NCBI GenBank assembly: GCA_963765495.1
Contig: CAVXWP010000016.1
Location: 160,001-224,000 of the forward strand
Origin: Blastocatellia bacterium
GTDB lineage: Bacteria > Acidobacteriota > Blastocatellia > UBA7656
DNA length: 64,000 nucleotides
Direction: 5' to 3'
Under the pieces are notes generated by a model. It saw only the letters and a list, made by a program, of their open reading frames with translations. It was not told the DNA's origin and searched no databases. A program made the position numbers and the translations under genes. Every line of letters starts with the position of its first letter. The first letter of the stretch is position 1. This document shows positions 1,495 to 25,509 of the stretch, piece by piece.

Positions 1495-3555
1495 CTAGCG
1501 ATTCGGATGGCGCGGGAACTTTACAAAGGGCAATCTTATGCCGCGCACGAACACGCGGTCGGCGCGCATCTCAGGCGGAGACTCAAATCCCGTGCTTCCC
1601 ATGGTGGCTATGATGTCGTCCTGATCCACACCGTCGCCGCTCAACCCTATGCCCCCGGCGAGCTTTCCGTTTTTGTAAAGAGGCACGCTGCCCGGAAATA
1701 TCTGGTTTCCGTTTCCGAGATTGAAGAAAGATGTGCAAGGAAAGGCTACCGCGTTGAGCAGAGACCCGACATCCTGCCCGTTGGAATTGAGAAATCTCAG
1801 GATATTGCCGTAATACTCATCCAGCACGAGGTCGAGTTGCAGTCCATCGTGGAAAGGAGAGAAGTCTTCGATAGGCACGGAAAACGGTCCGTGCTCAGTT
1901 TCGTCAATACCGTCCGGGAAGAAAGGCCGGCTGAGGAATCCCCCCGCGCGGTCTGAAAAGGCCACAGTCCCGTCAAGACCAAGCCCGTCTGCGGCAGCCG
2001 CGTCAACATACCTGCCAAGTCCGGCCTGTCGTAGCGTTCGGCCCGCTACGGGGTTGCTGAAGAAGGCGGCTGTGCGCGCCTTTTGCGCCGAAACGTCGAA
2101 ACCGAATATAGGGGCGTCAATCGTGCTGAATATACCCAGTATGGTTCCATCGACATCAACGACGGTCATATTCACCTGTGTAGGGCTATTGAGCGGCTGG
2201 CGAATAGCCGCGCGCGTGATAAAGGCCTGGGCCGCCGCCTGGGTTATCACCTGCAATACGTCGTTGGCCGTAAGCACCGAGCCGTTCTTGAACGGGAAGA
2301 AGCGATTATCCACTCTGCCGGGCGGCACTTTATCAGGGTCTGCGCCGGGCAATGTGATGACTCTGAACCTGGACGGTTGAGCGGGCAGCACGGTTGCCGG
2401 GGCCAGAGGCAACCTGTCGGGATGAGCCGGGTCGGGGGCGTTTGTGCACGGGCCTATCAAAGAGCCGGGCAGATTATCAAACGCCTTGAGCGTAAGCGAG
2501 GCAGGCATCGGCGTGTTGACGTATGGAAACCTGATGCCGTTTACGACTATCTTGTCTCCGGTGATTGCGTCCGGGGCCTCGAAACCGCGCGATGCCGCCA
2601 CCGCTACCAGTTCTTCAACCGGCTGGTCTTTGTCTGTCGGGTCGGGGTCGAGGCTATAGACTCCGTCGCCCTCGATGCCGATTCCGCCGACCTTCAGCCC
2701 GTTCTTGTAAAGCGGTATCCCGCCCGCGTCTGCCGAGAGTCCAAGAGGCGCTCTGGCATTGACATCGCTACAGAGAAACTGCGAAAACTGCACGCCAAAC
2801 AGCGGGCCCCCGGGCTGAAAGTTTACGCCCGGAGGGAAATGCTCCTGTACGATAAAGCTTGCCGTGCGCGTGCTGAATGCGTGTCCGCCGCTGCTTAGAA
2901 ACGATCCCGTGACAGCCTTCGATATGGCAGCCGAGCAGGAAGGAACCTTGACACCCTCAAGCCCGCAATTGGGGAAATCTCCGAAACACCGGGTTCCTAT
3001 GCCTACCACTGTATTTTTGGGAGTGCCGTTCATGGTGAAGTTGGCCAGAATGTTGCCTTCCGCATCAACGACGGCTATCGAAGCTCTCAACCCGCTTGCT
3101 TCGGCCTGCGCCACGGCCTGCGCGATTATGGTCTTGACATCGCTTACGGTAAGGCGGGTGTCGTCGGCCACGCTCACGGCTATATGAGCCGTCACAAAGG
3201 AGCCGTTGGGGTTTGTGACCTTCACATCCACCCCATCGGCGATGTCGGCTTCGGCCACGCTCTTTATTACTATCTTGGTCTCGCCTTTGATCTTAGCATT
3301 GCTAAAGCTGATCGGCCCCGCCGCATTAGTGAGCGTCAGCGCCGCCCCTTTTTGAAAATTCTCTCCCTTGATCGTCAGAGCGCCTTTCCGTGGATTGAAA
3401 GAAGCTTTGTCGGAGAAGATGAGCGGAGTCGGTCCCGACTGCAACCAGGCAAGTGAATGTCCACTCAGGCACACCATACCAATCGCTAGAAAGCAACTCA
3501 GGACTATCAGCGCTCGTCTTCCTGAGCGTTTGCGCTTTACAACCATGTATCTCAT
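1495..3555 (-). CDS. Exported heme-binding protein with two GlcG/HbpS (Haem_degrading/DUF336)-like domains and an N-terminal Ig/IPT-like module
   Basis: Duplicated module: IAVVDAEG..AISKAVT..GGIPLYKNGLKVGGIGIEGDG and MTVVDVDG..SAQKARTA..GSVPLYKNGKLAGGIGLSGDG. Basic plus hydrophobic leader. Start uncertain (3558/3555/3546). Confidence 0.8.
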   Translation of the reverse strand: MRYMVVKRKRSGRRALIVLSCFLAIGMVCLSGHSLAWLQSGPTPLIFSDKASFNPRKGALTIKGENFQKGAALTLTNAAGPISFSNAKIKGETKIVIKSVAEADIADGVDVKVTNPNGSFVTAHIAVSVADDTRLTVSDVKTIIAQAVAQAEASGLRASIAVVDAEGNILANFTMNGTPKNTVVGIGTRCFGDFPNCGLEGVKVPSCSAAISKAVTGSFLSSGGHAFSTRTASFIVQEHFPPGVNFQPGGPLFGVQFSQFLCSDVNARAPLGLSADAGGIPLYKNGLKVGGIGIEGDGVYSLDPDPTDKDQPVEELVAVAASRGFEAPDAITGDKIVVNGIRFPYVNTPMPASLTLKAFDNLPGSLIGPCTNAPDPAHPDRLPLAPATVLPAQPSRFRVITLPGADPDKVPPGRVDNRFFPFKNGSVLTANDVLQVITQAAAQAFITRAAIRQPLNSPTQVNMTVVDVDGTILGIFSTIDAPIFGFDVSAQKARTAAFFSNPVAGRTLRQAGLGRYVDAAAADGLGLDGTVAFSDRAGGFLSRPFFPDGIDETEHGPFSVPIEDFSPFHDGLQLDLVLDEYYGNILRFLNSNGQDVGSLLNAVAFPCTSFFNLGNGNQIFPGSVPLYKNGKLAGGIGLSGDGVDQDDIIATMGSTGFESPPEMRADRVFVRGIRLPFVKFPRHPNR

Positions 3556-4000
3556 CATAACCTCCAAACCCGGTTTGCTTTGGTGGGTGCACTCAAGCCC
3601 CAACACAAAAGCGAGAAAATGCTTAAGGATTTTTAGCGCGGATTTTTGCCATAAGCTGTGTAACGAATCTTGAAGTCAAACGACCGCTTACTGCACCCAC
3701 TCCCTTGTTCGATTGTTCAAACGCGTTGGTTGATCAGCCTTTCTAGCCAAAAGCCTTTCGTGCAATAAGAGCCGAATATTATCTTCCTTAATACCTGCAC
3801 CGCCCAAATCCGGCTGCTTTTGGGCGGGAAGTATAGCTTATGAAAAAAAGCGTTGCAAGCGAAAAGACGAAACGCGTCTCTTTGGCCCTCGTGCGAGGTC
3901 TTTACACAGCCAAATAGACAAAGAATTTTTCTCAAAAATCTTTTCTCAGTGTTTTTGCGCAAAAGTAGCCTGTTTGGGTATTTGCGACGAACTTGCACTC

Positions 4001-4030
4001 TTGACTTTAGCTCTCCTCACATGTTATACC
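4001..4030 (+). promoter_or_regulatory. Sigma70-type promoter candidate for the cytochrome operon
   Basis: TTGACT followed 18 nt later by TATACC, with an extended -10 TG, in the AT-rich divergent intergenic region. Confidence 0.35.
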
Positions 4031-4196: not shown

Positions 4197-6551
4197 ATGA
4201 AACTGAAGCTATTCATCGTTGCACTCTATGGACTGACTATGCTCGCGCTCGCGGCCCTGTCTACGAGCACATTCGCTTATTCGGGACCGGATGAAGCGAT
4301 TCAAAGCGAGGGTGAGCGAGTCGCCGTCAGATTCGACATTACAGGCAGACGCGGGCTGGTCATGTTTGACCACAAGCAACACGAGGCCCTGATAAACCCC
4401 GATCCGATCTTCCCTCACAAGACGCCGACCGGAGTCGCATGCATTGGGTGTCATCACACGGTCAAGGACATCACAGATCCAAAAGATTTTCAAAAATGCA
4501 CAAATTGTCACAAAGACCCCGGCAATCCCATAAACCCCGATGACAAGGAAGGCTTTGACCTGAACTCGATGCAGGCGTTTCACCGCCTCTGCATCAGTTG
4601 TCACAGGGCCTCGGCGGATGAGGATTTCAGAGCCGCAAGCGACAGATTCAAAGCCAAGAACGTGCGATTTGCCAATGTCGAGCGAACCATCAAATTTACA
4701 AAGTGCGGCGAGTGCCACGACCGCGACGCCACCTTTACTCCTGTAGCCGGAGAGGTGCTCGCTCAGCCTTCGCCCGACGATTCGCCCGATTTCGCACTGA
4801 GACTGAATCGCGCTCCGGCCCCGAGCGAAATCTTTAAGACGCCCTCAAATCCGCAGCTTGGATTCTCAGGGCCGTCAAGCATCGACAGACAGGAACAGAC
4901 CTCGGCCGATGCCGTGCAGGTTCCCGACCGCTGGCGCATAGGCTTTCCCGATGACCCGCGCTACAAACGCGGCGCGTGGTATAACCCCTATCGCCAGAAC
5001 ATCCTCAAAGGCGATTACCCGATCTTCAAGCAGCACAATTTCATGGTTCTGACGCTTGAAAGCGAGACCCTCGTCACCGCCAGGCGCATCCCTGTTCCAA
5101 GCAACGTCAGCGCGCAGAGACCCGATTCCGAAGAGTTCTTTGGCCGGGGCGGGCAAATCTTTACCCGGGAAAATTTCGTCGCCTCGATAGAGATTTTCCA
5201 CGGCGACACCTCCTATAAGCCTATTGATTGGAGATTCCGCTTCACGCCAAACTTCAACATCAATCACCTGAACACGCAGGAGAACTCTCTGGTCAACATC
5301 AACCCGGCTTTTGGAGCAAATCGGCTTGACGGCTATGTGGGATTTCAAGAGCTTTTCGGTGAAATGAGGCTCGGAGACACGACCAAACTACTTCCGTTCC
5401 TCAGAGGCCGGGGAAGCCAGAAAGGCGAAAGCCCGTACTTCGACACCACGTTTATCCGAGTGGGTATACAACAGTTCCAGAGCGATTTCCGGGGATTCAT
5501 CTTCAACGATTTCAACCTCGGAGCGCGACTCTTCGGACAGGCGGCAAATAACCACTACAACTTCAACGCGGCCTATTTTTACCTGCTTGAGAAAGACACA
5601 AACAGCGAATTGAACACCCGCGTAAACCTCGGCGAGTTCAGAGACCAGTCGCTGTTTATCGCCAACGTCTACAAGCAGGACACGATCTGGAAAGGCTACC
5701 AGACACAATTCAGCTTTCACTTCAACAACGACCGCCCGAGCAGGCACTTCGACGAAAACGATTTCCTTGTGCGCCCCGCCCTTATCGGAGACGCGGCCCC
5801 GCACGGAATCAAGTCTTACTACCTGGGATTTACGGGCGACGGCCACATAGGAAAGCTCAACATAGATCACGCCTTCTATCAGGTTCTGGGCCACGACACG
5901 CGCAATCCGATTGCCGGGCGCGAGGTTGACATAAACGCTCAGATGGCCGCAGCCGAGCTTTCTATTGATCGAGACTGGCTCAGGTTCAAAGGGTCGCTCT
6001 TCTTCGCTTCGGGCGATAAGAAACCCTTTGACGGCACGGCCCGTGGCTTTGATTCGATTGTGGATTTGCCGGAATTTGCGGGAGGCAAATTCAGCTTCTG
6101 GCAATTCAACCCCATCCCCTTCACAAACACGGCTGTACTTTTGACCCAGCCCGAAAGCCTGCTGCCGAACCTTCGCAGCAGCAAGACCGAAGGACAATCC
6201 AACTTTGTCAACCCCGGCATCTTCATCTACAACGTGGGAATCGAGGCGGAGATGACGCCAAAGCTCCGGGGCATCCTGAACCTGAATTACTCGCATTTTC
6301 ATCACACCGAAACGCTCGAACAACTGGAATTCCAACCGGGCATCCGCCGCGACATAGGGATTGATTACGGCGTTGGGGTACTGTATCGCCCGCTTTTGAA
6401 CGAGAACATCGTCATTGCAGGCGGGTTCTCGTCGCTGATCCCCGGCAAGGGGTTCGAAGACATCTATAGCTCTAACTGTAGCGGACAAAATTGCGGGTTC
6501 GCCACGAAGACCCTGTTTTCGACCTTTGTGAAGGTGAAAGTCATTTACTGA
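4197..6551 (+). CDS. Tetraheme cytochrome c3-like domain fused to an outer-membrane beta-barrel
   Basis: Signal peptide; FDHKQH plus CIGCHH, CTNCH, CISCH, CGECH. Then about 500 aa of amphipathic alternating beta-strands ending in aromatic C-terminal VKVKVIY. Confidence 0.8.
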
Positions 6552-6594: not shown

Positions 6595-9500
6595 ATGAAC
6601 GTACGTACCAGTAGCGGTCTCAAACTGTCGTTGATCCTGTTGGCAGTCTGCCTTTACACCTTTATCAGTTTCGCCGACACAACCCCCTCTGCGCGGCCTG
6701 CTTCTCCGGCAAAAGAGACCGGCAAGACGAAGGCAACCGATACGAAAGCGACTGAGGCGAAGGCAACTGAGGCGAAGGCAACTGAGGCGAAGGCCGCGGC
6801 GAAGGATTCGGCCAGTAATTCTGCTTCGGCGAAAAAGGATACCGGGAAGGAGTCAAAAGCCCCGGCCTCTGCCGCGCAAAACGCAGGTGGCGCCAAACTC
6901 TGGGGCATGACCAAAGAAGAGGCCGACCGCCGCAGCGCGGGCTGCAATGACTGCCACACCGGTATCGAAGACATGCACAACGGGGCGATAAACCTCGGCT
7001 GCATTGACTGCCACGGCGGCAACGCGGATGTCCGGGCGCAGGGCCTCTCGATGGGGTCAGCCCCCTACAACGAGGCGAAAAAACAGGCGCACGTTCAGCC
7101 GCGCCTCCCCGATCTCTGGAAGACCTCCGCCAATCCCGAACGGTCTTATACAGCCATACTCAGAGAGAGCCAGGAGTATGTTCAGTTCGTCAACCCCGGC
7201 GATCTGCGCGTTGCGCGCCGAAGCTGCGGGGTAGCCGAATGCCACCCCGGCGATGTGCACAACGTCAAGAAGAGCATGATGACTACGGGCAGCATGCTCT
7301 GGGGCGCGGCGCTCTACAACAACGGGTCGTTCCCGTTCAAGGATGCTCAATACGGCGAAAGCTATGACGAGGACGGCAAGCCTCAACGCCTGCAAACGGT
7401 CCCTTCTCCCACGCCCGAAGAGACTCACAAAAAAGGCATTCTCCCCTTTATAGACCCGATGCCCAGATGGGAAGTCTCTCAGATGGGAAACATACTGAGG
7501 ACATTCGAGCGCGGCGGGCGCAAGTCCGCAGAGATAGGCAATCCCCAGCCGGAAGAGCCTCCGGGAAAGCCCACGCAAAACCTTCTGAGCCTCAGAGGGT
7601 TGGGAACCCTGCTCGCCACAGACCCGACCTTTATCGGTCTGCAAAAGACTCGCCTGCTCGACCCGACGCTTAATTTCATGGGGACCAATGACCAGCCGGG
7701 TGACTATCGCTCAAGCGGCTGCACCTCCTGTCACGTCATCTATGCCAATGACCGCGACCCTTACCATTCGGGGCCGTTCGCAAAATACGGCCACACAGGG
7801 TTAAGCGCCAGCGCCGACCCGACCATCCCGAAAAACGAATCGGGGCACCCGATAAAGCACCAGTTTACGCGAGCCATTCCGAGCAGCCAGTGCGTGGTCT
7901 GTCACATGCACCCCGGCACGCTCGTGCTGATGACCTACTACGGCACGATGTGGTGGGATCTTGAGACGGACGGCGAGAAGATGTATCCCAAAGAGCACAA
8001 AGAACTGAGCGCGGAAGAGGAACGAACCATCCTCCAGCGGAACCCGGAAGCGTCGTCGCTCAGGGGTAAATGGGGCGATCCCGAGTTTCTTAGGAACCTC
8101 CGCGAAGAGGTCAATCCCGATCTCAAACACACGCAGTTTGCCGACTTCAACGGTCACGGATGGGTCTATCGAACCACATTCAAAATGGACCGTAAGGGAA
8201 ATTATCTGGATGCCAACGGCGATATCGTCAAGGATGTAACATCGGAAAAACTCAAGAAGGCCGTCGAAGACCCTTATGATGAAAACGCCGATCGCTCAGG
8301 GATTCCCGTTCATCTGAAAGACATTCACCTCGAACGCGGGATGCACTGCATAGACTGTCACTTCCGACGCGACAGCCACGGGAACGGAAATCTCTACAGC
8401 GGGCCTCGCAACGCCATAGAGATTTCATGCGAAGACTGTCACGGCACTATAGACAAACGCGCCGACCCGACATCTCTTGATGCGCGAACATCGGCAGCCG
8501 CGGGCGGCAACCGCATGCTCGAATACCGCAAGGTCTCTCCGCTCGGCGATAACCCGGCCTTAAAGAAAGACAGGTTTTTCAAGAAAGACGGCAAGCTTTT
8601 CCAGCGATCGGCGGTCGAAGCCGACAAGACGTGGGAGGTTAAACAGCTTGTTGACATAATCACGCCGGGCAACCCCGAATACAACGAGAAGGCGGCGCTT
8701 GCCAAGACCGTGCTAAAGGACGGAAAGACCTGGGGCACGGTGCCCGCAGATGATCGCAATCTCGCGCACGCAAACAGCAAGATGACATGTTTTGCGTGTC
8801 ACATGTCGTGGACGCCAAGCTGTTTCGGATGTCACCTGAAGCAGACCGCAAATCAACAGCGCGCGATGCTGCACAACGAAGGCGATGAGGAACTGCGAAA
8901 TTATGTGACCTATAATTTCCAGACCCTCCGCGACGATGTCTTCATGCTTGGGAAAGACGGCACGGTAACAGGCAAACGGTTTGCGCCCATCAGATCGGCA
9001 TGCGCCGTTCTGGTCAGTTCCAGAAACGCCCTTCGCGAATACCTCTACTGGCAGCAGCAGACCGTATCTCAGGAAGGCTACAGCGGGCAGGCGTTCAGTT
9101 CTCACTTCCCGCACACGGTCAGGACCACCGAGACAAAAGGATGCACCGATTGCCATCTGTCTAAGGAAAATGACAACAACGCATACATGGCCATGGTGTT
9201 GATGCAGGGGACGAATTTCTATAACTGGATAGGGCGATACGTCTATGTCGCCACAGGCGAAGGCGGTTATTCGGCCATCGTCGCCACCGAGCGCGAGGAA
9301 CCGCAGGCCGTCATCGGCAGCCATCTGCATAAACTGGCCTTCCCCGAGGAGTACAAGAAACACCAGGAAGACCACGAGGAGCTTCACGAATTTTACGAGC
9401 ATCCGGGCAACGATATAGGCAACTCGCTCAAGCTTTTCGGCAAGGACAAGACCGAAGTGCAAAGCCTTCAGCTTCGCGGCGAATACCTTTATGCCGCGAC

Positions 9501-10944: not shown

Positions 10945-11035
10945 CTCGTGATTCGTGATTGACCAAACTTGCAAGATGCCTTTGACATGCAGGCTTCTTA
11001 AAAGTCACGAATCACGAATCACTCTTCACGCATCA
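10941..11035. repeat. Inverted heptamer-array element, family A copy 1
   Basis: (tcgtga.)n-core-(tcacgaa)n. Overlaps the TGA stop at 10942-10944. Confidence 0.8.
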
Positions 11036-11050
11036 GATCGAGGGATTGAT

Positions 11051-11608: not shown

Positions 11609-11709
11609 CACGAATTCTAAATAGGAAGTTGGACCGGATTTGAGGTGTAATTAGGGGCTGTCCGAATTTTGCTATGACAGGTGGCAGTCATCTGGAGGAT
11701 TACCAGACC

Positions 11710-12693: not shown

Positions 12694-12713
12694 ACCGATA
12701 GGGCGGTAATGAC

Positions 12714-19871: not shown

Positions 19872-20642
19872 TTGAAAGTCAGACTTCTGCCGAGCAGCGC
19901 GGGGCGACATTCCCAGGAGCAGTCGCTAACCAGTTTCCTCATAAACGATCTGGTTTCGATTGACGGCGGCAGCATTGGATTTGCCCTGACGCCACCTGAA
20001 ATGGGCAAGGTCCGAGACATCGTGATAACGCATACGCACAGCGATCATCACGCATCTTTGCCTATTTTCATAGCCGAAGCATTCACAATGCTCGACGGAC
20101 CCGTTACGATTTACGGCCTGCCGGAAGTGATCTCGGCGTTGAGGGAGTTTATATTCAACGACAAAATATGGCCGAACTTCGAAAAGATTCCGCTTATGAA
20201 CGGCAAATCTTCTACGATAGAGTTTCGCGTCTTAGAGCCGAGAGAGACGATCGAGATTGCGGGGCTGCGCGTGACGCCAATACCCGTAAATCACCTTGTT
20301 CCGACTATCGGATTGCTGGTCGAGGACGACGGGGCCGCCGTGATCTTCACCTCCGATACTTACGTGACGGACGAGATATGGCAGCGCGGCAGAGAGAGCG
20401 AAGAGCTAAAAGCCGTCTTTGTTGATATTTCATTTCCGAACGAGCTTGGCAAACTTGCTGCCGACTCCAAGCACCTGACCCCTGAGTTGCTTGCCGGAGA
20501 GCTGAAAAAACTGAACCGGGATGCCGAAGTCTTTGCGGTCCATATCAAGCCTACCAACAGGGATCAGGTAATTCACCAGCTTGGCCTGCTCGACAATCCG
20601 CTTGTTTCAGTGGCCGAAATCGGGCGGGTTTATGAGTGGTAA
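19872..20642 (+). CDS. 3',5'-cyclic-nucleotide phosphodiesterase (class II / metallo-beta-lactamase fold)
   Basis: THTHSDHH metal motif, FNDKIWPNF, PVNHLVP, FTSDT, SKHLTP, VHIKP. TTG start after ggagg. Confidence 0.85.
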   Translation: MKVRLLPSSAGRHSQEQSLTSFLINDLVSIDGGSIGFALTPPEMGKVRDIVITHTHSDHHASLPIFIAEAFTMLDGPVTIYGLPEVISALREFIFNDKIWPNFEKIPLMNGKSSTIEFRVLEPRETIEIAGLRVTPIPVNHLVPTIGLLVEDDGAAVIFTSDTYVTDEIWQRGRESEELKAVFVDISFPNELGKLAADSKHLTPELLAGELKKLNRDAEVFAVHIKPTNRDQVIHQLGLLDNPLVSVAEIGRVYEW

Positions 20643-20693
20643 CTGACGGGTGGTAATTGCCCCAGACCGGTCGCCGCAGAATTTGAAGATGTT

Positions 20694-22319
20694 ATGTCTC
20701 TAAAACTATTAATAAGAAACACCGAAACAGGACAGGTAACCGAGAACGTATTGTCTGCCCCCGAAGTGCGGATAGGCCGGTCAGCCGAATATAACGACAT
20801 AGTGCTTGACGACTCTCAGGTCTCGCGCCGACACGCGATGCTACAGCGACTGGGCAGTTCATACATGCTTGTGGACCTAAACAGCGCCAACGGCACCTTC
20901 GTTGACGGTGAGCGGATCAAAGACCGCATCCTCAACGACGGCAATTCGTTTTCAATCAGCAAGTACACGCTCACATACAAGAGCGAAGGAGCGGTTGCCG
21001 TCAAATTCGACAACCAGCGAATCGGCAACACCGTACTGCTGCGCAACCCGGAACAGGTCGCGGCAAGTATAGCGCAACTGGATAAGTCTGTTATCTCTGA
21101 AGCCGCGGTTGATTCCAAGGACTTGCTCGAAGACATAGAAGCGCTCAGGAAAAAAGCGGAAACGCTGTCGCGCCTCTACGAATTGAATCAGATGCTCGGG
21201 TCGGTCTTTTCGCTCGAAGACATATTCAAGAAAGTAAGCGAGATGTTGTTCCGTCTGACGCCGGCCGACCGTTTTCTGGTTCTGTTGAAAGACACGGGCA
21301 CGGGCAAGCTCTCTCCGGTAGCCACGGAATTCCGCATACAGGCGGGCCGGTTGATAGCCGGTGACATATCGGTCTCTCAGACTGTGATGGACCGCGTCTT
21401 AAACGAGCGAATGTCGCTGCTCTCCTTCGATGCGCAGGGCGATGAGAGGTTGAAATCGTCTCAGTCCATCATCATGCAGAATATCCATTCGGTTATGTGC
21501 GCTCCTTTGCTTGGCAAAAACGGCGTGCTGGGTGTCGTCTATGTCGATTGCCTGCAAATCATTCAGACCTTTAAGGAAGACGACCTTGAATTATTGAATG
21601 CGCTCGCGGCTGAGACCGCCATAGCCGTCGACAACGCCATAACACACGAGCAACTGGTCAGAGAAGCCCTGGCTCGCGCTACCTATGGCCGCTTCATGCC
21701 CAAGCACGTGGTTGATGCAATACTGGCCAACCCCGATCAGATAAGCATGGGAGGGTCAAACGCCCTCGTTACCATGCTCTTTTCCGACGTTCGCGGATTC
21801 ACAAGCATGTCTGAGAATCTGCCGCCTGAGACCGTAGTCCAGATGCTTAATGAGTATTTTGGCGATATGGCTCCAATTGTATTCGAGTATCAGGGTTTGC
21901 TCGACAAGTATATCGGAGACGGTTTGATGGCGCTCTTCGGCGTGCCTTATCAAAACGAAAAATCTGCCACAAACGCCGTGGCCGCCGCCGTAACCATGCA
22001 ACGCCAGATGGAAAAGGTAAACAAAGAACTAACGAATAGAGGGCTTGCTGAAATCGCCATCGGGATAGGCATAAACACTGGAACGGTGACGGTCGGCTAT
22101 ATAGGTTCGGAAGAGCGGACCGATTATACCGCGATTGGCGACGCGGTCAATCTGGCTGCGCGATTGGAAAAAGAAGCGGGCCGAGGTCAGATAATAATCA
22201 GTTATTCCACGCTCGAAGCAATCGGAGACGGCTTTCCCGTAAAGCCAAAAGGCGAAGTGCTTGTAAAGGGGAAGCGAGAAGCGGTTAAGATTTATGAGGT
22301 TCTCTGGCAGGAGGCCTGA
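20694..22319 (+). CDS. FHA-GAF-class III adenylate cyclase
   Basis: IGR..VSRRHA..SANGT; SVMCAPL..GVVYVD (GAF). FSDVRGFT, DKYIGDG and YTAIGDAVNLAARLE (Lys/Thr indicate ATP specificity). Confidence 0.92.
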   Translation: MSLKLLIRNTETGQVTENVLSAPEVRIGRSAEYNDIVLDDSQVSRRHAMLQRLGSSYMLVDLNSANGTFVDGERIKDRILNDGNSFSISKYTLTYKSEGAVAVKFDNQRIGNTVLLRNPEQVAASIAQLDKSVISEAAVDSKDLLEDIEALRKKAETLSRLYELNQMLGSVFSLEDIFKKVSEMLFRLTPADRFLVLLKDTGTGKLSPVATEFRIQAGRLIAGDISVSQTVMDRVLNERMSLLSFDAQGDERLKSSQSIIMQNIHSVMCAPLLGKNGVLGVVYVDCLQIIQTFKEDDLELLNALAAETAIAVDNAITHEQLVREALARATYGRFMPKHVVDAILANPDQISMGGSNALVTMLFSDVRGFTSMSENLPPETVVQMLNEYFGDMAPIVFEYQGLLDKYIGDGLMALFGVPYQNEKSATNAVAAAVTMQRQMEKVNKELTNRGLAEIAIGIGINTGTVTVGYIGSEERTDYTAIGDAVNLAARLEKEAGRGQIIISYSTLEAIGDGFPVKPKGEVLVKGKREAVKIYEVLWQEA

Positions 22320-22416: not shown

Positions 22417-24045
22417 TCAAGCGCCGGCCGCGTTTCCCAGACCGAAGAATTTTATTATCCGGGCGAAGATGTCCTTCTGCGCGTGGCCCATGCGACTGGC
22501 CGTGGCTTCGGCATCAAGCCCGTCGCGGGCCGCTTCGTATTCCGTTCGGCGTCGCGCAAGCACATGAGATATATACTCGGCTATCTCGGGGCGCTTGAGC
22601 AGGATGTCGTGAAAGGCTTCTTTGTCCAGCCGGTAACATTCCACGTCTTCGAGCGCCATAACCGTAGCCGACCTCTTTTCCCCGGTCATCAAAGACATCT
22701 CTCCAAAAAAATCTCCGGGGTGCAAAACGGCAAGGCTGCGAGTCTGTCCGCTCTCAATCGAAAGAGTGACCTCCGCCACTCCTTCCGTGATGATGTAGAG
22801 CCAGTGTCCTTCGGCTCCCTGTCTGGTAATCGCCTCGCCCTTTGTGAACGGAGCGGGGACGAGTCGCTCGGCAAGCACCCGGCGCTCTTCATCGCTCAGA
22901 GTATGGAACAGGTCTACACCTGCAAGCGCGGCAAGACGACCCTCGATCTCGCGTTCCTGTTTTCTGCCCCTTCGCTTCTCGGTCTCTTCTGTGACAAAGA
23001 CGCTCTGCGCGGGGATAGAGAGCGGAATCCCGGCGCGTTTGAGCGCGAAATATATCCGCGTGCGAACTATGGAGTCGGTCGGGTCATCCACGGCCAGGTC
23101 GGTCAGCCAGTACCGCGCGGCATAGTAACAGAAACTCTCTTTGAAATCATAAAGTATGCAATGAATCTTAGGCTCGGCGGCGACCCGCTCTATCGGTTCG
23201 GCCTGGAGCGCCTCGTTTACTATCGAGATGACCTGGGTCGGCGGGACGCGAAAGTCCACGTTGAAATAGACCCACTGGCGATGCTGCGTAGCCTGCCCGG
23301 TCCTGCGGCCCAGCACCGTGACCTGCCCTTTCATCAACATGCTGTTTGGGAAAATGATCGTGTCCCAGTTGCGCGTCTCAATCGAAGTGTGCCGCCAGCG
23401 TATCTCTTTTACCTTCCCGACATTTTGATCAATCTTCACCCAGTCGCCGACGTTTATAGTCTTTTCCAGTTGCAGTGCCAGCCCGCCCATGATGTTGCCA
23501 AGCGTATCCTGAAGCGAAAAGGCGATCACAGCCGTCAGCACCGCCGATGTCGTGATTATGTCTGAAAGACTCAATCCCCCGTGCCAGAGCAACCCCATTC
23601 CAACCATGATATAGCCTAAGGCTACAAGCAGGTCGCGGAGTATTCGAGGCGTGTGAACATGGATCAGATTGAGCAGGATATCGAATATGAATATGCTCGC
23701 AAGATTTACGATTGCAATCCCGCCTATCAACAGCCCCGTGTTGAGAGTAAAGTTGCTGGACGATTTTGCTCCACTCGATTCGAACAGGCTCGATGCCGAA
23801 ATCAGCACAAGCGCCAGCAGGAAAAACCAGCTTGCCGCCCGAATGCGAGAGCGCGCGGCAGGCACATATTTCACAAGCAAGATCGCGACTACGGCAAACG
23901 TCGCGGTCACAGGCAATACGTTGTGTTTGGAATAGACGGCGCGCAAATCGTTCCAGAGGCTCGATAGATTCAGCCCTGCGGAGTCTTGCAGAACGGCAAT
24001 CGTAAGAAGGTAAAACGGTTTCTGAAGAGAGACGAAAAAATCCAT
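22417..24045 (-). CDS. MscS-family channel with C-terminal cNMP-binding domain (bCNG-like), extra N-terminal TMs
   Basis: VIAFSLQDTLGNIMGG, VGDWVKI, PNS motifs; GDFFGEMSLMTGEKRSATV. Confidence 0.92.
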   Translation of the reverse strand: MDFFVSLQKPFYLLTIAVLQDSAGLNLSSLWNDLRAVYSKHNVLPVTATFAVVAILLVKYVPAARSRIRAASWFFLLALVLISASSLFESSGAKSSSNFTLNTGLLIGGIAIVNLASIFIFDILLNLIHVHTPRILRDLLVALGYIMVGMGLLWHGGLSLSDIITTSAVLTAVIAFSLQDTLGNIMGGLALQLEKTINVGDWVKIDQNVGKVKEIRWRHTSIETRNWDTIIFPNSMLMKGQVTVLGRRTGQATQHRQWVYFNVDFRVPPTQVISIVNEALQAEPIERVAAEPKIHCILYDFKESFCYYAARYWLTDLAVDDPTDSIVRTRIYFALKRAGIPLSIPAQSVFVTEETEKRRGRKQEREIEGRLAALAGVDLFHTLSDEERRVLAERLVPAPFTKGEAITRQGAEGHWLYIITEGVAEVTLSIESGQTRSLAVLHPGDFFGEMSLMTGEKRSATVMALEDVECYRLDKEAFHDILLKRPEIAEYISHVLARRRTEYEAARDGLDAEATASRMGHAQKDIFARIIKFFGLGNAAGA

Positions 24046-24075
24046 CCGGGTCAGCCCCTTTGCCTGATCGTTTAA

Positions 24076-25509
24076 TTAACCGAGTTTGAAGAATCGCTGA
24101 ATGCGGCGCAACACGGTCTCTCTTTGCATGCGTTTTTCGCTTTCAGGGACACTGTGCGCATATTCGGCGAGACGCGCCTGCCGGTCGGCGATCTTGTGAG
24201 AGAAAGCCTCGACCAGTTTGTCATTCTCGTTGAACAACTGCTCGATGGCCTGCTTTCTTATTTCGAAGATCTCGACTTCTTCCAGGGCGTTGACATCCGC
24301 CGTCCTGGGTTCGCCCGTGAAAAGCGCCATCTCTCCAAAGAAATCGCCCGCTGCAAGCACGGCCACGCGCTGAGATTGACCATTCGAACCCGAGACTTTA
24401 ACCTCGGCCTTGCCTCGATAAATTATAAACATCGAATCGCCTTCATCGCCGCGATGCAGAATCTCTTCGCCGGGAGCATAAATGTATCTGGCCAGCGAAT
24501 GGGTCAGCACAGTCCTCTCTTCATCCGTGAGCGGCTCGAAAATTTCTACCGACCGGATCACCTTATCATAGTCGGTCTCGTCGCGCTTCACCTCTACCTT
24601 CTGCCTCTCAAACAGGACGTGCCGCACGGGGAAGGGGATATGCAGATCGTTGCGGCTGAAGAGATACCATATTCGCTCTCTGATTTGCGCATCCATATTC
24701 GGGGTCCACATATAATCCTTGACCCAGTAGAGGACTTCATAGGTTACGCTCGATTCCGAAAACTCGTGGATACGCACAACGGGGATTTTTTCAGGCGAAA
24801 CCCTCGGCATAGTGCGGACGGTTTCGCGCACAAGCGGGATCACCTTTTGCGGGGGGGTCGCATAAGGAGCCGGGAACCGCAGCACGCGCCGGTTGAGGCC
24901 GTGCAGCGGGTATATTTCAAGCGGCTCGCGCGCGATCTTGCTGTTTGGGAATATGATGACGCTGTTGTTGTTTGTGCGAATGGCGGTCGTGCGCCATGTT
25001 ACCGATTCCACCTTGCCGAGCATATCGCCCATTCGAATCGCGTCACCGATGTAATAAGGCTGCTCGACGTGCAACGACAACCCGGCAAAGAAATTTCCCA
25101 GCGTGTCCTGTAATGCGAGACCGATGATAACCGTGACGACAGCCGATGTTGCGAGCACTCCGCTCAGGTCTTTCTTAAAGACAAAGCTATAGATGACAAC
25201 AAAAAGCGCCGAATATCCGATTATCGAAATCACAAGGCGAAGCAGTGCGGGCGCTTCGCGTCCCTTTCGCTTCTGAAAGATTATGTCAAACAGCACATAG
25301 CTTACGGCTCGGACTACTGTCACGCCGATGCTTATGACCAGCACCGTTTGAAAGTACACATAGCCCTGGATATCCATCAAGCCGTGGGCAAAGAGTCTGA
25401 GGATGATATAGATCAGGCCCAGCAGCAGGCTGACGGTAGCCGTCACTGTCAGCCTTTTCAGCGCCGAATTAGAGTCTTCCATTGCCTGATTGCTCGTCAT
25501 CTCATTCAC
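24076..25509 (-). CDS. Second MscS-family channel with C-terminal cNMP-binding domain (bCNG-like)
   Basis: IGLALQDTLGNFFAG, IGDAIR, PNSKI; GDFFGEMALFTGEPRTADV. Start abuts or overlaps the glk stop. Confidence 0.92.
   Translation of the reverse strand: MNEMTSNQAMEDSNSALKRLTVTATVSLLLGLIYIILRLFAHGLMDIQGYVYFQTVLVISIGVTVVRAVSYVLFDIIFQKRKGREAPALLRLVISIIGYSALFVVIYSFVFKKDLSGVLATSAVVTVIIGLALQDTLGNFFAGLSLHVEQPYYIGDAIRMGDMLGKVESVTWRTTAIRTNNNSVIIFPNSKIAREPLEIYPLHGLNRRVLRFPAPYATPPQKVIPLVRETVRTMPRVSPEKIPVVRIHEFSESSVTYEVLYWVKDYMWTPNMDAQIRERIWYLFSRNDLHIPFPVRHVLFERQKVEVKRDETDYDKVIRSVEIFEPLTDEERTVLTHSLARYIYAPGEEILHRGDEGDSMFIIYRGKAEVKVSGSNGQSQRVAVLAAGDFFGEMALFTGEPRTADVNALEEVEIFEIRKQAIEQLFNENDKLVEAFSHKIADRQARLAEYAHSVPESEKRMQRETVLRRIQRFFKLG

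What the first reader, a model, noticed from the sequence alone, without database searches (positions are those of the whole stretch)
1495..25509. Candidate new system: cAMP- and phosphothreonine-gated trans-envelope multiheme electron conduit
Seen: one co-directional run (4197-22319) encodes every layer of a wire. Outer membrane: beta-barrel fused to a tetraheme. Exported: 9-10-heme propeller protein, 4- and 8-heme soluble cytochromes and a 9-heme lipoprotein. Inner membrane/cytoplasm: a His-containing membrane protein with 4x[4Fe-4S], and a heptaheme-ferredoxin-NAD(P)H flavoprotein. I count 41 CXXCH. The two membrane redox subunits carry regulatory domains themselves (tandem cNMP-binding; FHA). 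The same run ends with a cNMP phosphodiesterase and an FHA-GAF adenylate cyclase, converging on two cNMP-domain MscS channels; a secreted double heme-binding protein is divergent. Known: porin-cytochrome conduits (MtrCAB, Geobacter Pcc) are fed from quinol via CymA/ImcH/CbcL-type proteins, and their redox subunits do not carry cNMP or FHA domains. Inference: electrons move between cytoplasmic NAD(P)H and the cell surface under direct second-messenger control, or the wire senses extracellular redox and sets cAMP level.
Basis: partly seen in the sequence, partly recalled or inferred. Interest (0 to 1): 0.92.

Follow-up and report, generated by a model that had tools for sequence, protein, structure and literature searches.

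The report
Signal-gated NADPH-to-cytochrome membrane electron module
Soil Acidobacteriota carry a conserved, uncharacterised pair of membrane proteins that look built to pass electrons from cytoplasmic NADPH across the inner membrane to haem proteins outside it, and both carry their own signalling domains.

Summary
Window 4197-22319 encodes, on one strand, a tetrahaem-barrel fusion, a 9-10-haem LVIVD protein, 4-, 8- and 9-haem cytochromes, a cNMP-4x[4Fe-4S]-membrane protein (g7), an FHA-heptahaem-ferredoxin-flavoprotein (g8), a class-II-PDE-like hydrolase and an FHA-GAF cyclase. There are 41 haem sites, against 0.175 CXXCH expected from shuffles.

Only g7 and g8 always travel together: 58 of 59 related loci with enough sequence. 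In most relatives g8 is split into an FHA-heptahaem protein and a ferredoxin-flavoprotein.

The g7 membrane domain has four invariant histidines (two Hx13H pairs), the signature of a two-haem b transmembrane relay. The topology of both proteins is coherent.

Best reading: a NOX-like, possibly quinone-independent route from NADPH through FAD, Fe-S, two b haems and seven c haems to periplasmic cytochromes. In this clade it may continue to an outer-membrane conduit. cNMP and phosphothreonine inputs are built in.

The barrel, PDE, cyclase and bCNG channels are confined to one Blastocatellia clade. A 2026 preprint describes a split proteobacterial analogue of unknown function. Function, direction and gating are inferred, not shown.

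The parts
13886..16324 (+). g7 (812 aa from M19 of the ORF that opens at 13832). Cytoplasmic tandem cNMP-binding domains: the first has an intact FGE...R-x-A-T cassette and the second has none. Then a 4x[4Fe-4S] NrfC/PsrB-like domain with no export signal, and a 5-helix membrane domain with two Hx13H pairs.
   Evidence: Pfam and NCBIfam. 16 Cys are invariant in 45 of 46 rows, and H616, H630, H788 and H802 in all 46 (A4). The same four His are invariant in 39 of 39 and 28 of 28 divergent homologues. The fold of the N-terminal part matches the tandem CNB domains of the PKA regulatory subunit.
15497..16318 (+). Membrane domain of g7: putative di-haem b transmembrane relay. TM3 carries W-x3-H...H and the last TM carries W-x3-H-x13-H. 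A 120-residue cytoplasmic helical insert lies between TM4 and TM5.
   Evidence: Hydropathy and alignments A4 and A7. 848 library representatives match at E<=0.001, including stand-alone proteins of about 280 aa. There are only sub-threshold Pfam hits, to Ni_hydr_CYTB, DUF4405 or Ferric_reduct, in 11 of 26 stand-alone homologues. No NCBIfam or PDB sequence match.
16375..19674 (+). g8 (1099 aa). FHA (16456-16644), TM1 (17029-17085), periplasmic heptahaem domain (17125-17886), TM2 (18103-18159), 2-cluster ferredoxin (18292-18456), and a TrxR/YpdA-like FAD/NAD(P)H flavoprotein with a Zn-ribbon insert (18661-19653).
   Evidence: Conserved in A3 (60 sequences): 7 CXXCH plus 7 further invariant His; the FHA residues G30-R31, S45-R46 and N72-G73; 8 ferredoxin Cys; and two GxGxxG/A motifs. 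The best solved relatives of the flavoprotein are YpdA/Bdr 7a76 and 7a7b.
4197..6551 (+). g2: signal peptide, tetrahaem c3-like domain, Pro-rich linker, and a C-terminal domain of about 500 residues that is probably an outer-membrane beta-barrel (a fused cytochrome-porin).
   Evidence: The AF2 model has mean pLDDT 40.8 but 16-17 long strands from residue 280. The Foldseek matches listed are outer-membrane barrels, AlgE best at E 3.2e-8. The C-terminus reads ...K-x-K-[FVL]-x-Y in 11 of 11 homologues and there is no hydrophobic helix. No Pfam family covers this domain.
6595..10944 (+). g3: exported protein with 9 CXXCH plus 1 CX4CH, LVIVD repeats, and a C-terminal hydrophobic helix with an RRRNKK tail (sorting-signal-like).
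   Evidence: Partial match to ExtM, 84 bits against a cut-off of 800.
10955..13724 (+). g4 (tetrahaem; probable start 11051), g5 (octahaem; ORF 11674-12693) and g6 (nonahaem; 12714-13724): exported c3/c7-type multihaem cytochromes.
   Evidence: Relatives of the 8-, 9- and 4-haem genes also lie near g7-g8 in Pyrinomonadaceae loci, on the other strand.
19872..20642 (+). g9: metallo-beta-lactamase-fold hydrolase, class-II cyclic-nucleotide-phosphodiesterase-like.
   Evidence: PF02112, 58.1 bits against 23.7, but only 85 of 340 profile positions. The best solved match is yeast PDE1 4ojv, E 6.4e-7. NCBIfam NF041851 gives 29 bits against a cut-off of 400.
20694..22319 (+). g10: FHA-GAF-class III nucleotide cyclase. 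The residues D365, K405, D409, T479, N485 and R489 are read as the adenylate-cyclase type.
   Evidence: Pfam and the sequence itself. The roles assigned to these residues are recalled, not tested.
22417..25509 (-). g11 and g12: MscS-type channels with a C-terminal cNMP-binding domain (bCNG type), convergent on the run.
   Evidence: The bCNG family is as described in PMC13591265 (passage read).
1495..3606 (-). g1: exported or anchored protein with two HbpS-like (GlcG/DUF336) domains, divergent from g2.
   Evidence: It recurs near g7-g8 in 5 of 80 loci (L012, L025, L040, L043, L054), in different positions.
25502..40320 (-). Context: oxidative pentose-phosphate operon (glucokinase, OpcA, G6PD, two 6PGD, lactonase, transaldolase-PGI, transketolase), the main NADPH source.
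   Evidence: The glk, opcA and zwf genes also flank g7-g8 in L002, L003, L005, L008, L009 and L040, and lie upstream and divergent in L039 and L053.

Best explanation
g7 and g8 form one inner-membrane redox complex that carries electrons from the cytoplasm to the periplasm.

Proposed path (inferred): NAD(P)H reduces the FAD of the C-terminal TrxR-type flavoprotein of g8. Electrons then pass to its fused two-cluster ferredoxin and along the four [4Fe-4S] clusters of g7. They cross the membrane on two bis-His b haems held by the Hx13H pairs of g7, and reach the seven bis-His c haems of g8, which sit in the periplasm between its two membrane helices. From there they go to the soluble 4-, 8- and 9-haem cytochromes.

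In the window's clade the path may continue to the tetrahaem-barrel fusion g2 and the surface LVIVD cytochrome g3, that is, to an extracellular or periplasmic acceptor.

The logic is that of NADPH oxidase/ferric reductase (flavin, two b haems, outside), built from unrelated parts and extended by c haems.

The cyclic-nucleotide-binding domain of g7 and the FHA domain of g8 are fixed parts of the family. They are taken to switch or tune the flow. In this clade cAMP would be supplied locally by g10 and removed by g9.

Shown: the domains, the cofactor-binding residues, the topology, the synteny and the conservation. Inferred: complex formation, the donor, the direction, the acceptor and the gating.
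For: 1. Synteny. Both halves of g8 follow g7 on the same strand in 58 of 59 loci with at least 3.4 kb downstream, at a median gap of 97 nt. The proteins are fused in 15 loci plus the window and split into two genes in 45.

2. Cofactor sites are conserved across the family: 16 Fe-S Cys and 4 membrane His in g7; 7 CXXCH, 7 distal His, 8 ferredoxin Cys and 2 dinucleotide motifs in g8.

3. Topology. H616 and H788 lie at the cytoplasmic ends, and H630 and H802 at the periplasmic ends, of two helices that both run from inside to outside. Basic loops lie on the side of the Fe-S, FHA and flavoprotein domains.

4. Weak family leads for a di-haem b domain. 11 of 26 stand-alone homologues give sub-threshold Ni_hydr_CYTB, DUF4405 or Ferric_reduct hits. 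The Atlas gives 'ferric reductase like' at 0.82, which is a lead only.

5. Complex prediction, g7 residues 520-812 with 2 haems and g8 residues 205-610: weak support. The median score is 0.59 (0.57, 0.64, 0.59) and the best of 3 controls is 0.00. The mark was reached by 58 of 80 solved complexes and 2 of 110 mismatched pairs. At 0.60 or under it was reached by only 7 of those 80 and by both passing mismatches. The runs agree in at least 81% of contacts, and the partner's pLDDT is at least 66.

6. Other multihaem cytochrome genes (4 or more CXXCH) lie within 10 kb in 22 of 33 full-flank loci, in two unrelated arrangements.

7. The NADPH-producing oxidative pentose-phosphate operon adjoins the cluster here and in 8 related loci, in two arrangements.

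8. The flavoprotein lacks a conserved CxxC; only C861 and C1031 are conserved there. It has Ala where YpdA is recalled to have its active Cys. That fits an NAD(P)H:ferredoxin reductase with its own ferredoxin.

9. Direction. Export of electrons from about -320 mV is downhill and helped by the membrane potential, whereas import would run against both. This is inference from standard bioenergetics.
Against: - No cofactor, activity or interaction has been measured.
- The membrane domain matches no curated haem b family above threshold and no solved structure by sequence. Its AF2 model is mediocre (mean pLDDT 56.7 for the whole of g7).
- 11 of 33 full-flank loci have no other multihaem gene nearby.
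- The Pyrinomonadaceae loci show no outer-membrane barrel, so 'trans-envelope' may hold only for one clade.
- The barrel itself rests on a model with pLDDT 40.8.
- A quinone site in g7 cannot be excluded.
- Cyclase and PDE are absent from most loci, so local cAMP control is not a family trait.
- The second cNMP domain lacks the phosphate-binding cassette.
- Known Blastocatellia are mainly aerobes (recalled), which sits uneasily with metal respiration.
Confidence: 0.5

Rival explanations
1. Quinone-coupled module. The g7 membrane domain is a quinol/quinone oxidoreductase, as in CbcL, NarI, FdnI or HybB. The periplasmic cytochromes are fed from, or feed, the menaquinone pool. The cytoplasmic Fe-S and flavoprotein arm is a second entry to the same pool.
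For: Di-haem b subunits with the same His spacing commonly carry quinone sites (established knowledge). The weak Ni_hydr_CYTB hits point to such families. The Ferrigenium preprint proposes quinone reduction for its analogue.
Against: The long cytoplasmic Fe-S chain plus a dedicated flavoprotein is conserved in 58 of 59 loci. That is superfluous for a plain quinol dehydrogenase. No quinone-site motif could be tested.
Confidence: 0.2
2. Same machine, different job. It supplies NADPH-derived reducing power to the periplasm for redox homeostasis or oxidative-stress defence, comparable in purpose to DsbD or MsrPQ, and is not used for respiration on extracellular acceptors.
For: - The hosts are soil aerobes (recalled).
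- The neighbours in Pyrinomonadaceae loci are an ECF sigma factor, a PDZ protein, a PilZ protein, a GCS2 ligase and an ATP-grasp enzyme. Other loci carry a redoxin, a Ser/Thr kinase and a PIG-L deacetylase.
- The oxidative pentose-phosphate operon lies alongside.
- The window also holds a secreted HbpS-like protein and a signal-peptide globin.
- Most loci have no g2-like barrel gene.
Against: In the window's clade the barrel fusion and the large surface cytochrome are encoded directly upstream on the same strand, in 11 of 45 loci. That is the hallmark of extracellular electron transfer. No periplasmic reductase or peroxidase gene is conserved next to the core.
Confidence: 0.25
3. Inward flow. 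The outer cytochromes take electrons from Fe(II) or another outside donor, with g2 acting like the fused cytochrome-porin Cyc2. The g7-g8 pair delivers them to cytoplasmic NAD(P)+ or to a disulfide.
For: g2 has the Cyc2-type layout of a haem domain fused to a barrel. Only the title and the start of the abstract of the Cyc2 paper 10.1101/228056 were seen. The only published analogue is from an Fe(II) oxidiser and was discussed as an uptake route. The flavoprotein's nearest solved relatives are disulfide reductases.
Against: Moving electrons from c haems to Fe-S and flavin at about -320 mV runs uphill and against the membrane potential, and no proton-coupling element is evident (inference). The YpdA-type active Cys and the TrxR CxxC are absent.
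Confidence: 0.08
4. The cAMP genes (g9-g12) are an independent neighbouring signalling unit, a cyclase and phosphodiesterase serving the two bCNG channels. They have no specific tie to the redox proteins.
For: PDE and cyclase are each in 9 of 48 loci with 7 kb downstream, and a MscS-cNMP gene in 4 of 48. bCNG channels are a known stand-alone family. g7 keeps its cNMP domain in the many loci that have no cyclase.
Against: - PDE and cyclase follow g8 on the same strand in 9 loci (g9, then g10).
- A g10-like FHA-GAF-cyclase sits directly upstream of g7, divergently, in two Pyrinomonadaceae loci of different layout (L025, L043).
- The cyclase shares the FHA input with g8.
Confidence: 0.35

Closest known systems
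FHA-nonahaem cytochrome c, 5-TM protein and [4Fe-4S] protein cluster of Ferrigenium straubiae (bioRxiv 10.64898/2026.01.22.701106, section 27 read). Also the 'Forkhead-associated protein' cluster with 10 CXXCH in Gallionellaceae (PMC9900912, table passage).
   Same: A cytoplasmic FHA domain joined through a membrane helix to a periplasmic multihaem c domain. Beside it lie a five-helix membrane protein with no database match and a cytosolic [4Fe-4S] protein. Function is unknown.
   Different: There the three parts are separate proteins, with 9 haems and one membrane helix. No cNMP domain, flavoprotein or barrel is reported, and the 5-TM protein was judged not redox-active. Here the Fe-S and 5-TM parts are one protein with cNMP domains and four invariant His. 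Homology to the Ferrigenium proteins could not be tested because their sequences are not held.
NADPH oxidase / ferric reductase (NOX, FRE, FRD superfamily)
   Same: It works alike: cytoplasmic NADPH, then flavin, then two stacked bis-His b haems on two helices with H-x13-H spacing, then the outer face.
   Different: The flavoprotein is TrxR-type and sits on another polypeptide. Six Fe-S clusters are interposed. The acceptor is a c-haem chain, not O2 or Fe(III). Pfam Ferric_reduct is never reached above threshold.
Transmembrane redox complexes of sulfate reducers and Geobacter (TmcABCD, HmcABCDEF, Cbc complexes, ExtMNO)
   Same: A periplasmic multihaem c, a membrane cytochrome b and a cytoplasmic or Fe-S subunit linking the two sides of the inner membrane.
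   Different: Only sub-cut-off matches were found: HmcA, TmcA, ExtM, ExtN and ExtO at 15-84 bits against cut-offs of 114-800. None of these is known to carry NAD(P)H flavoprotein, cNMP or FHA domains (recalled; searches found none).
Porin-cytochrome conduits (MtrCAB, Geobacter Pcc) and the Acidobacteriota/Verrucomicrobiota EET1-4 clusters (bioRxiv 10.64898/2026.05.27.727921, section 9 read)
   Same: A gene cluster holding an outer-membrane barrel together with periplasmic and surface multihaem cytochromes.
   Different: The barrel is fused to its own tetrahaem domain. There is no MtrB_PioB Pfam hit, and the OmcA/MtrC and DmsE models stay under their cut-offs. EET1-4 are from Terriglobia, Bryobacterales and Verrucomicrobiota, and the section read describes no inner-membrane partner.
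Cyc2 fused cytochrome-porin (10.1101/228056; only title and start of abstract seen)
   Same: An N-terminal c-type cytochrome domain and an outer-membrane barrel in one polypeptide.
   Different: Four haems rather than one (the Cyc2 figure is recalled), and a longer barrel region. Homology was not tested because no Cyc2 model is available.
bCNG channels (MscS with a C-terminal cNMP domain)
   Same: g11 and g12 have exactly this architecture and intact FGE...R[ST]A cassettes.
   Different: None seen. They are ordinary members. Their link to the redox genes is positional only.

Membership tests
Porin-cytochrome conduit of the Mtr/Pcc type | Outer-membrane barrel of the MtrB/PioB family | tested here: not met
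   No PF11854-type hit for g2 in the Pfam scan at E<=0.01. The C-terminal domain has no Pfam family in any of the 120 listed homologues.
Porin-cytochrome conduit of the Mtr/Pcc type | Decahaem MtrA/DmsE or MtrC/OmcA family cytochromes | tested here: not met
   TIGR03507 and TIGR03508 give 23-34 bits against cut-offs of 192-209.
Porin-cytochrome conduit (any) | A transmembrane beta-barrel in the outer membrane | tested here: inconclusive
   The AF2 model has mean pLDDT 40.8 with 16-17 long strands. Foldseek matches are outer-membrane barrels, E 3e-8, TM-score 0.36-0.52 on the target. The C-terminal Tyr motif is present in 11 of 11.
Cyc2-type fused cytochrome-porin | Haem c domain and barrel in one exported polypeptide | tested here: met
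   Signal peptide, 4 CXXCH at residues 97-185 of the ORF, then a strand-rich C-terminal domain.
Cyc2-type fused cytochrome-porin | Sequence homology to Cyc2 | not testable with these tools
   No Cyc2 or FeGenie model is available in the libraries offered.
Ferric reductase domain / NOX superfamily | Two pairs of haem-ligating His, about 13 residues apart, on two transmembrane helices | tested here: met
   H616/H630 and H788/H802 are invariant in 39 of 39 and 28 of 28 sequences.
Ferric reductase domain / NOX superfamily | Match to PF01794 above the gathering score | tested here: not met
   No hit for g7. 3 of 26 stand-alone homologues reach 18-19 bits against a cut-off of 28.
NrfC/PsrB/DsrO four-cluster ferredoxins | Four Cys groups (16 Cys) binding four cubane clusters | tested here: met
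   Cys at 333/336/339/343, 379/382/387/391, 411/414/417/421 and 473/476/493/497. 15 are invariant and one nearly invariant in 46 sequences. PDB relatives are 6cz7_B and 2vpw_B.
NrfC/PsrB/DsrO four-cluster ferredoxins | Equivalog-level score or Tat export to the periplasm | tested here: not met
   The best NCBIfam score is 57 bits against a cut-off of 450. The domain lies 320 residues inside a protein that begins with cytoplasmic cNMP domains.
YpdA/Bdr bacillithiol-disulfide reductase | Score at the TIGR04018 cut-off | tested here: not met
   121.5 bits against 339.9. Consensus is GxGPAGLSA, with Ala where the active Cys of YpdA is recalled to lie.
Thioredoxin reductase | Redox-active CxxC in the NADPH domain | tested here: not met
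   The only conserved Cys in the flavoprotein part are C861, C1031 and the four Zn-ribbon Cys. TIGR01292 gives 43 bits against 343.
FHA domain (phosphothreonine reader) | Pfam score and conserved Gly-Arg, Ser-Arg, His and Asn-Gly loop residues | tested here: met
   PF00498 gives 54 bits against 20.7. G30, R31, S45 and R46 are invariant and H48, N72 and G73 nearly invariant in 60 sequences. The roles of these residues are recalled.
Cyclic-nucleotide-binding domain | Phosphate-binding cassette FGE...R-x-A | tested here: met
   The first domain of g7 reads FGEMSVLAGVPRNAT. G110 is invariant, and F109, E111, R120 and A122 are at least 90% conserved. The second domain lacks the cassette. Ligand identity was not tested.
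Class III adenylate cyclase | Catalytic domain with metal Asp pair, substrate Lys and Asn/Arg | tested here: met
   PF00211 gives 106 bits. D365, D409, K405, T479, N485 and R489 are read from the sequence. The assignment to ATP is recalled.
Class II cyclic-nucleotide phosphodiesterase | PF02112 above the gathering score; equivalog NF041851 | tested here: inconclusive
   PF02112 gives 58.1 bits against 23.7 but covers only 85 of 340 positions. NF041851 gives 29 bits against 400. RNase Z and PhnP models score similarly.
bCNG channels | MscS pore and beta domain with a C-terminal cNMP-binding domain | tested here: met
   g11 and g12.
FHA-multihaem / 5-TM / [4Fe-4S] cluster (Ferrigenium preprint) | The three components encoded together | tested here: met
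   All three are present as domains of g7 and g8. Sequence homology is not testable because those sequences are not held.

The most novel reading that the evidence does not exclude
A quinone-independent 'bacterial NOX with a wire'. A single two-subunit complex takes electrons straight from cytoplasmic NADPH through flavin, six Fe-S clusters, two b haems and seven c haems into a periplasmic and outer-membrane cytochrome chain. Its throughput is set directly by cAMP binding to one subunit and by phosphothreonine docking on the other. This would give abundant soil Acidobacteriota a signal-gated valve for discharging reducing power to extracellular acceptors.
Probability: 0.3. Interest if true: 0.9.

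Novelty: new variant of a known kind. Interest (0 to 1): 0.74.

Why it matters
Known extracellular-electron-transfer chains start at the quinone pool, and none is known to carry second-messenger or phosphopeptide readers on its redox subunits.

This pair is common. 403 related stretches were found in one-genome-per-species contigs, all of the 80 inspected being Acidobacteriota of the Blastocatellia/Pyrinomonadaceae type.

If it works as proposed, it would be a new way to couple cytoplasmic NADPH to the cell exterior. It would also be a rare case of post-translational gating of a respiratory-type wire.

It would give the five-helix protein that a 2026 study of an iron oxidiser left unexplained a concrete, testable role as a two-haem b relay.

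It would also bear on how abundant soil bacteria balance redox state and interact with iron, manganese and humic matter.

Tried and rejected
- AF2 of g2 with 11 sequences gave pLDDT 40.8. AF2 of g7 with 18 sequences gave 56.7.
- Foldseek with the g7 model returned only PKA regulatory subunits, driven by the cNMP domains. It said nothing about the membrane part.
- Profile searches of the membrane domain found nothing meaningful in PDB sequences (best E 0.017, a sodium channel) or in NCBIfam.
- The Atlas look-up gave scores of 0.82-0.84, below the level that means anything.
- The promoter and terminator scan was at chance level: 9 promoter-like sites against 10.8 expected. Operon structure rests on strand and spacing only.
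- The listing of cluster members gave no taxonomy for the distant homologues, so the range outside Acidobacteriota is unknown.
- YpdA/Bdr and thioredoxin reductase were rejected as identities for the flavoprotein. The scores are under the cut-offs and the active-site Cys are missing.
- MtrB/PioB was rejected for the barrel, as there is no hit.
- Not available: the collections metagenome contigs and viral contigs (closed), a second genome-contig scan (cap), FeGenie/Cyc2 models, and bioRxiv supplements. The last means the Ferrigenium sequences could not be compared.

Full report
**What is there.** The window carries a co-directional run of nine genes (4197-22319, + strand). A divergent gene (g1, 1495-3606) lies on one side and two convergent genes (g11 and g12, 22417-25509) on the other.

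- g2: signal peptide, tetrahaem class III cytochrome c, and a C-terminal part of about 550 residues that has no family.
- g3: 9 CXXCH plus 1 CX4CH, with LVIVD repeats.
- g4, g5 and g6: 4, 8 and 9 CXXCH.
- g7: two cNMP-binding stretches, an NrfC/DsrO-like Fe-S domain, and a membrane domain.
- g8: FHA, 7 CXXCH, ferredoxin, and a pyridine-nucleotide-disulfide-oxidoreductase-type flavoprotein.
- g9: class-II-phosphodiesterase-like metallo-beta-lactamase fold.
- g10: FHA, GAF and a class III cyclase.
- g11 and g12: MscS channels with a cNMP domain.
- g1: two HbpS-like domains.

There are 42 CXXCH, one of which belongs to the ferredoxin motif of g8. Residue shuffles give a mean of 0.175 and a maximum of 3.

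**Topology.** Hydropathy places the heptahaem domain of g8 (residues 251-504) between two membrane helices (219-237 and 577-595). The FHA domain lies before the first helix, and the ferredoxin and flavoprotein after the second. Basic residues flank the helices on the FHA and flavoprotein side. One polypeptide can therefore have its c haems in the periplasm and its other domains in the cytoplasm.

g7 begins with soluble cNMP and Fe-S domains without an export signal. It ends in five helices. The strongly basic loop between helices 2 and 3, and a 120-residue charged insert between helices 4 and 5, fall on the cytoplasmic side.

**The conserved unit is g7 plus g8.**
- g8 has 467 relatives at E<=0.001 among 7999 candidates scored. 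Of the 120 listed, 118 cover at least 99% of the query at 47-100% identity.
- g7 has 2354 relatives at E<=0.001 among 8000 candidates. The 120 listed are 66-100% identical.
- Every source name that gives a taxon says Acidobacteriota or Blastocatellia.
- A scan of one genome per species with a g7 alignment found 403 related stretches. The best 80 were kept with 10 kb flanks.
- By their record titles these 80 are Blastocatellia, Pyrinomonadaceae or unclassified Acidobacteriota. A few MAGs are titled Clostridia or Heliobacteriaceae but nest among the others in the tree.
- By tblastn, both the haem half and the flavoprotein half of g8 follow g7 on the same strand in 58 of 59 loci with at least 3.4 kb downstream. 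The median gap is 97 nt. The exception, L076, has a shortened haem half.
- In 15 loci and the window the two halves are one gene. In 45 loci they are two genes: an FHA-TM-heptahaem-TM protein of about 500 aa and a ferredoxin-flavoprotein of about 517 aa. In six of those loci a rhomboid, AAA or PIG-L gene lies between them.
- On a g7 tree one branch with 98% SH-aLRT support separates 20 rows from 52 rows. The 20 rows hold every fused locus, the window and short contigs. The 52 rows hold every split locus (quick method, midpoint root for drawing only).

**Cofactor sites.**
- g8, 60 sequences: the seven CXXCH, seven further His (251, 316, 330, 372, 430, 433, 504), eight ferredoxin Cys and two dinucleotide-binding motifs are invariant or nearly so. 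The same holds for the FHA loop residues G30-R31, S45-R46, H48 and N72-G73.
- g7, 46 sequences reaching down to 25% identity: 15 of the 16 Fe-S Cys are invariant and one is nearly invariant. The phosphate-binding cassette of the first cNMP domain is conserved. Four membrane His are invariant.
- A whole-library search with the membrane domain alone found 848 representatives at E<=0.001. They include cNMP-Fe-S-TM proteins at 25-31% identity, one multihaem-TM fusion, and many stand-alone proteins of 265-320 aa.
- In two alignments of these the same four His are invariant, in 39 of 39 and 28 of 28 sequences. They are H616 and H630 on helix 3, and H788 and H802 on the last helix. Each pair is H-x13-H, and each is preceded by an invariant Trp four residues before the first His.
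- Both helices run from inside to outside, so the His pair up at two depths. This is the standard signature of two bis-His b haems stacked across a membrane.
- It remains a signature only. No curated family is reached. 11 of 26 stand-alone homologues give sub-threshold Ni_hydr_CYTB, DUF4405 or Ferric_reduct hits, 12 give nothing and 3 give unrelated weak hits. NCBIfam and PDB sequence searches are empty.

**The flavoprotein.** Its nearest solved relatives are YpdA/Bdr proteins (E 1.6e-13). The YpdA model scores 121.5 bits against a cut-off of 339.9, and the thioredoxin-reductase model 43 against 343. No CxxC is conserved in this part. The position recalled to hold the active Cys of YpdA is Ala in the consensus.

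A TrxR-type NAD(P)H:ferredoxin reductase fused to its ferredoxin is the simplest reading. The invariant Arg-Ser after the second Rossmann strand hints at NADPH. That reading of the motif is recalled, not tested.

The whole oxidative pentose-phosphate pathway is encoded next door (25502-40320, - strand). Its glk, opcA and zwf genes also adjoin g7-g8 in eight related loci in two different arrangements.

**Do g7 and g8 touch?** One complex prediction was run. It used g7 residues 520-812, two haems riding along, and g8 residues 205-610, with my own alignments. It gave 'weak support'.
- The median score is 0.59 (runs 0.57, 0.64, 0.59). The best of 3 controls is 0.00.
- The mark was reached by 58 of 80 solved complexes and 2 of 110 mismatched pairs. 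At 0.60 or under it was reached by only 7 of those 80, and by both mismatches that passed.
- The runs agree in at least 81% of contacts, and the partner's pLDDT is at least 66.
- With near-universal synteny as a prior I count this as mild support.

**The outer layers.** The g2 barrel is plausible but not proven.
- The AF2 model has mean pLDDT 40.8, with 16-17 long strands from residue 280.
- Its Foldseek matches are outer-membrane barrels: AlgE at E 3.2e-8, then OmpM1, Occ/Opd, OmpF-type porins, MOMP and the NalP translocator.
- The C-terminus ends in an alternating hydrophobic motif with a final Tyr in 11 of 11 homologues. The domain has no hydrophobic helix.
- The family is large. 6565 proteins reach E<=0.001 among 8000 candidates. 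Most of those listed carry the c3 domain, and none has a Pfam family for the C-terminal part.
- g3 ends in a hydrophobic helix followed by RRRNKK, like a C-terminal sorting signal. No model confirmed this.

**How far the rest is co-conserved (ORF-family counts).** Greedy ORF picking misses a few genes, so these are lower bounds.
- g2 and g3 are present in 11 of 45 loci with at least 9.5 kb upstream.
- The PDE is in 9 of 48 loci with at least 7 kb downstream. A g10-like cyclase is in 9 of 48, both are in 6 of 48, and a MscS-cNMP gene is in 4 of 48.
- Among 33 loci with full flanks, another gene with at least 4 CXXCH is present in 22, g2 in 7, and g1 in 4.
- Of those 33, 8 have fused g8, and 7 of the 8 also have g2. 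None of the other 25 has g2.
- Exceptions that link the parts across layouts: L035 (split g8) has g2-g3 downstream. L025 and L043 (Pyrinomonadaceae) have a g10-like cyclase directly upstream and divergent.
- The typical Pyrinomonadaceae locus has a convergent operon downstream: a CcsA-like cytochrome c assembly protein, a TPR protein, octa-, nona- and tetrahaem cytochromes, and a small unknown protein.
- Upstream it has a divergent ECF sigma factor, an unknown protein, a PDZ protein, an ATP-grasp enzyme, a PilZ protein and a GCS2 ligase. There is no barrel.
- Other loci have a Ser/Thr kinase, a triple-FHA ABC transporter and a redoxin upstream.
- FHA is found in 44 of 45 split heptahaem proteins and cNMP_binding in 46 of 46 g7 relatives. 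The regulatory domains therefore belong to the family, whereas the cyclase, the PDE and the channels do not.

**Mechanism.** I propose that g7-g8 is a transmembrane electron exporter. Electrons would pass from NAD(P)H to FAD, then to the two ferredoxin clusters of g8 and the four clusters of g7. They would cross the membrane on two b haems and reach the seven c haems of g8, then the soluble cytochromes.

In the window's clade the path would go on to the cytochrome-barrel fusion and the surface cytochrome.

Outward flow is favoured because it is downhill from about -320 mV and is assisted by the membrane potential. Inward flow would oppose both, and no proton-coupling element is visible (inference).

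The physiological acceptor is open. It could be an extracellular oxidant, as in metal or humic reduction, or periplasmic targets in redox defence. The neighbours in the barrel-less clades lean towards the second.

A quinone site in g7 cannot be excluded.

cNMP and phosphothreonine inputs are likely to gate or tune the complex. Nothing tested here says how, or which nucleotide binds. The g10 catalytic residues read as an adenylate cyclase of the Lys/Thr type (roles recalled).

**Comparison with what is known.** The module works like NADPH oxidase/ferric reductase. It also resembles the Tmc, Hmc and Cbc type complexes that join periplasmic multihaem cytochromes, a membrane cytochrome b and cytoplasmic Fe-S proteins. 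It meets no sequence-level membership test for any of them.

The closest published description is in a 2026 preprint on Ferrigenium straubiae. That paper reports an FHA-one-helix-nonahaem cytochrome encoded beside a five-helix protein with no InterPro match and a cytosolic [4Fe-4S] protein. It states that FHA had not been reported with multihaem cytochromes, and it leaves the function open (10.64898/2026.01.22.701106; section 27 read).

A Gallionellaceae pangenome table lists a 'Forkhead-associated protein' cluster with 10 CXXCH (PMC9900912; passage only).

The stand-alone homologues of about 280 aa found here probably correspond to that five-helix protein. I could not test this.

Porin-cytochrome clusters have been described in other Acidobacteriota, namely Terriglobia and Bryobacterales. 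The parts I read mention no inner-membrane partner or signalling domain (10.64898/2026.05.27.727921; passages and section 9).

g11 and g12 are ordinary bCNG channels (PMC13591265; passage).

Three full-text searches returned nothing further:
- FHA domain, multihaem cytochrome, thioredoxin reductase and Acidobacteria, at least 3 of the 4 terms: 0 papers.
- Cyclic nucleotide-binding, 4Fe-4S, cytochrome b, multihaem and transmembrane electron transfer, at least 4 of the 5 terms: 3 papers, none relevant by title and abstract.
- Forkhead-associated with multihaem: 4 papers held, 2 listed, both cited above.

Subscription journals and preprint supplements were not searchable.

The robust and widespread novelty is the two- or three-protein inner-membrane module with built-in cNMP and FHA domains and a predicted di-haem b relay. 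The trans-envelope extension and the local cAMP circuit are features of one Blastocatellia clade and are less secure.

I rate it a new variant of a known kind, the transmembrane multihaem/b/Fe-S redox complex. Interest is high because it makes a quinone-bypassing, signal-gated electron export directly testable.

Noticed in passing
window 25502-40320 (- strand): A complete oxidative pentose-phosphate operon: glucokinase, OpcA, G6PD, 6PGD, lactonase, ROK, a second 6PGD, a HAD hydrolase, a transaldolase-PGI fusion and transketolase. It abuts the cluster. Its glk, opcA and zwf genes recur next to g7-g8 in 8 related loci in two arrangements.
   Followed up: partly
window 43876-46399 (- strand): A PP2C-type protein phosphatase followed by a zinc-ribbon/FHA protein. 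These are Ser/Thr-phosphorylation signalling parts about 20 kb from the FHA-bearing g8 and g10. No protein kinase was found among the window ORFs scanned.
   Followed up: no
window 810-1325 (+ strand): A bacterial-like (truncated) globin with an N-terminal hydrophobic signal-like segment and a Lys-rich repeat ([16 protein letters not shown]). It lies just beyond the HbpS-like gene.
   Followed up: no
window 10830-10944 (C-terminus of g3): The large surface cytochrome ends in a hydrophobic helix and an RRRNKK tail, resembling a PEP-CTERM or other C-terminal sorting signal. No NCBIfam sorting-domain model matched.
   Followed up: partly
L009 and L038 (both contigs of assembly DATNBZ01); L050 and L051 (JBDSEC01): Some genomes carry two copies of the g7-g8 module. 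In DATNBZ01 one copy has the full cytochrome/barrel/PDE/cyclase set and a second, very divergent copy (branch length 1.3 on the g7 tree) has none.
   Followed up: no
L019, L021, L042, L044, L045, L066 (between the heptahaem gene and the flavoprotein gene): Rhomboid protease, AAA ATPase (ClpB-D2-like) and PIG-L family deacetylase genes are inserted inside the split module. Together with the GCS2 ligase, ATP-grasp and amidotransferase genes upstream in Pyrinomonadaceae loci, this hints at a link to low-molecular-weight thiol metabolism.
   Followed up: no
P0370 (1277 aa): A library protein in which a multihaem c domain is fused directly to the four-His membrane domain. This is an independent gene-fusion hint that the membrane domain exchanges electrons with c haems.
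   Followed up: partly
L004, L011, L020, L035, L042, L044 (record titles): MAGs titled 'uncultured Clostridia', 'Heliobacteriaceae' or 'Heliomicrobium' carry loci that nest among the Blastocatellia rows of the g7 tree. The record taxonomy is probably wrong.
   Followed up: no
window 18661-19653, g8 residues 925-942: A four-Cys zinc-ribbon is inserted in the flavoprotein domain. It is invariant in the 60 full-length relatives but absent from many split-form flavoproteins (present in 25 of the sequences aligned).
   Followed up: no
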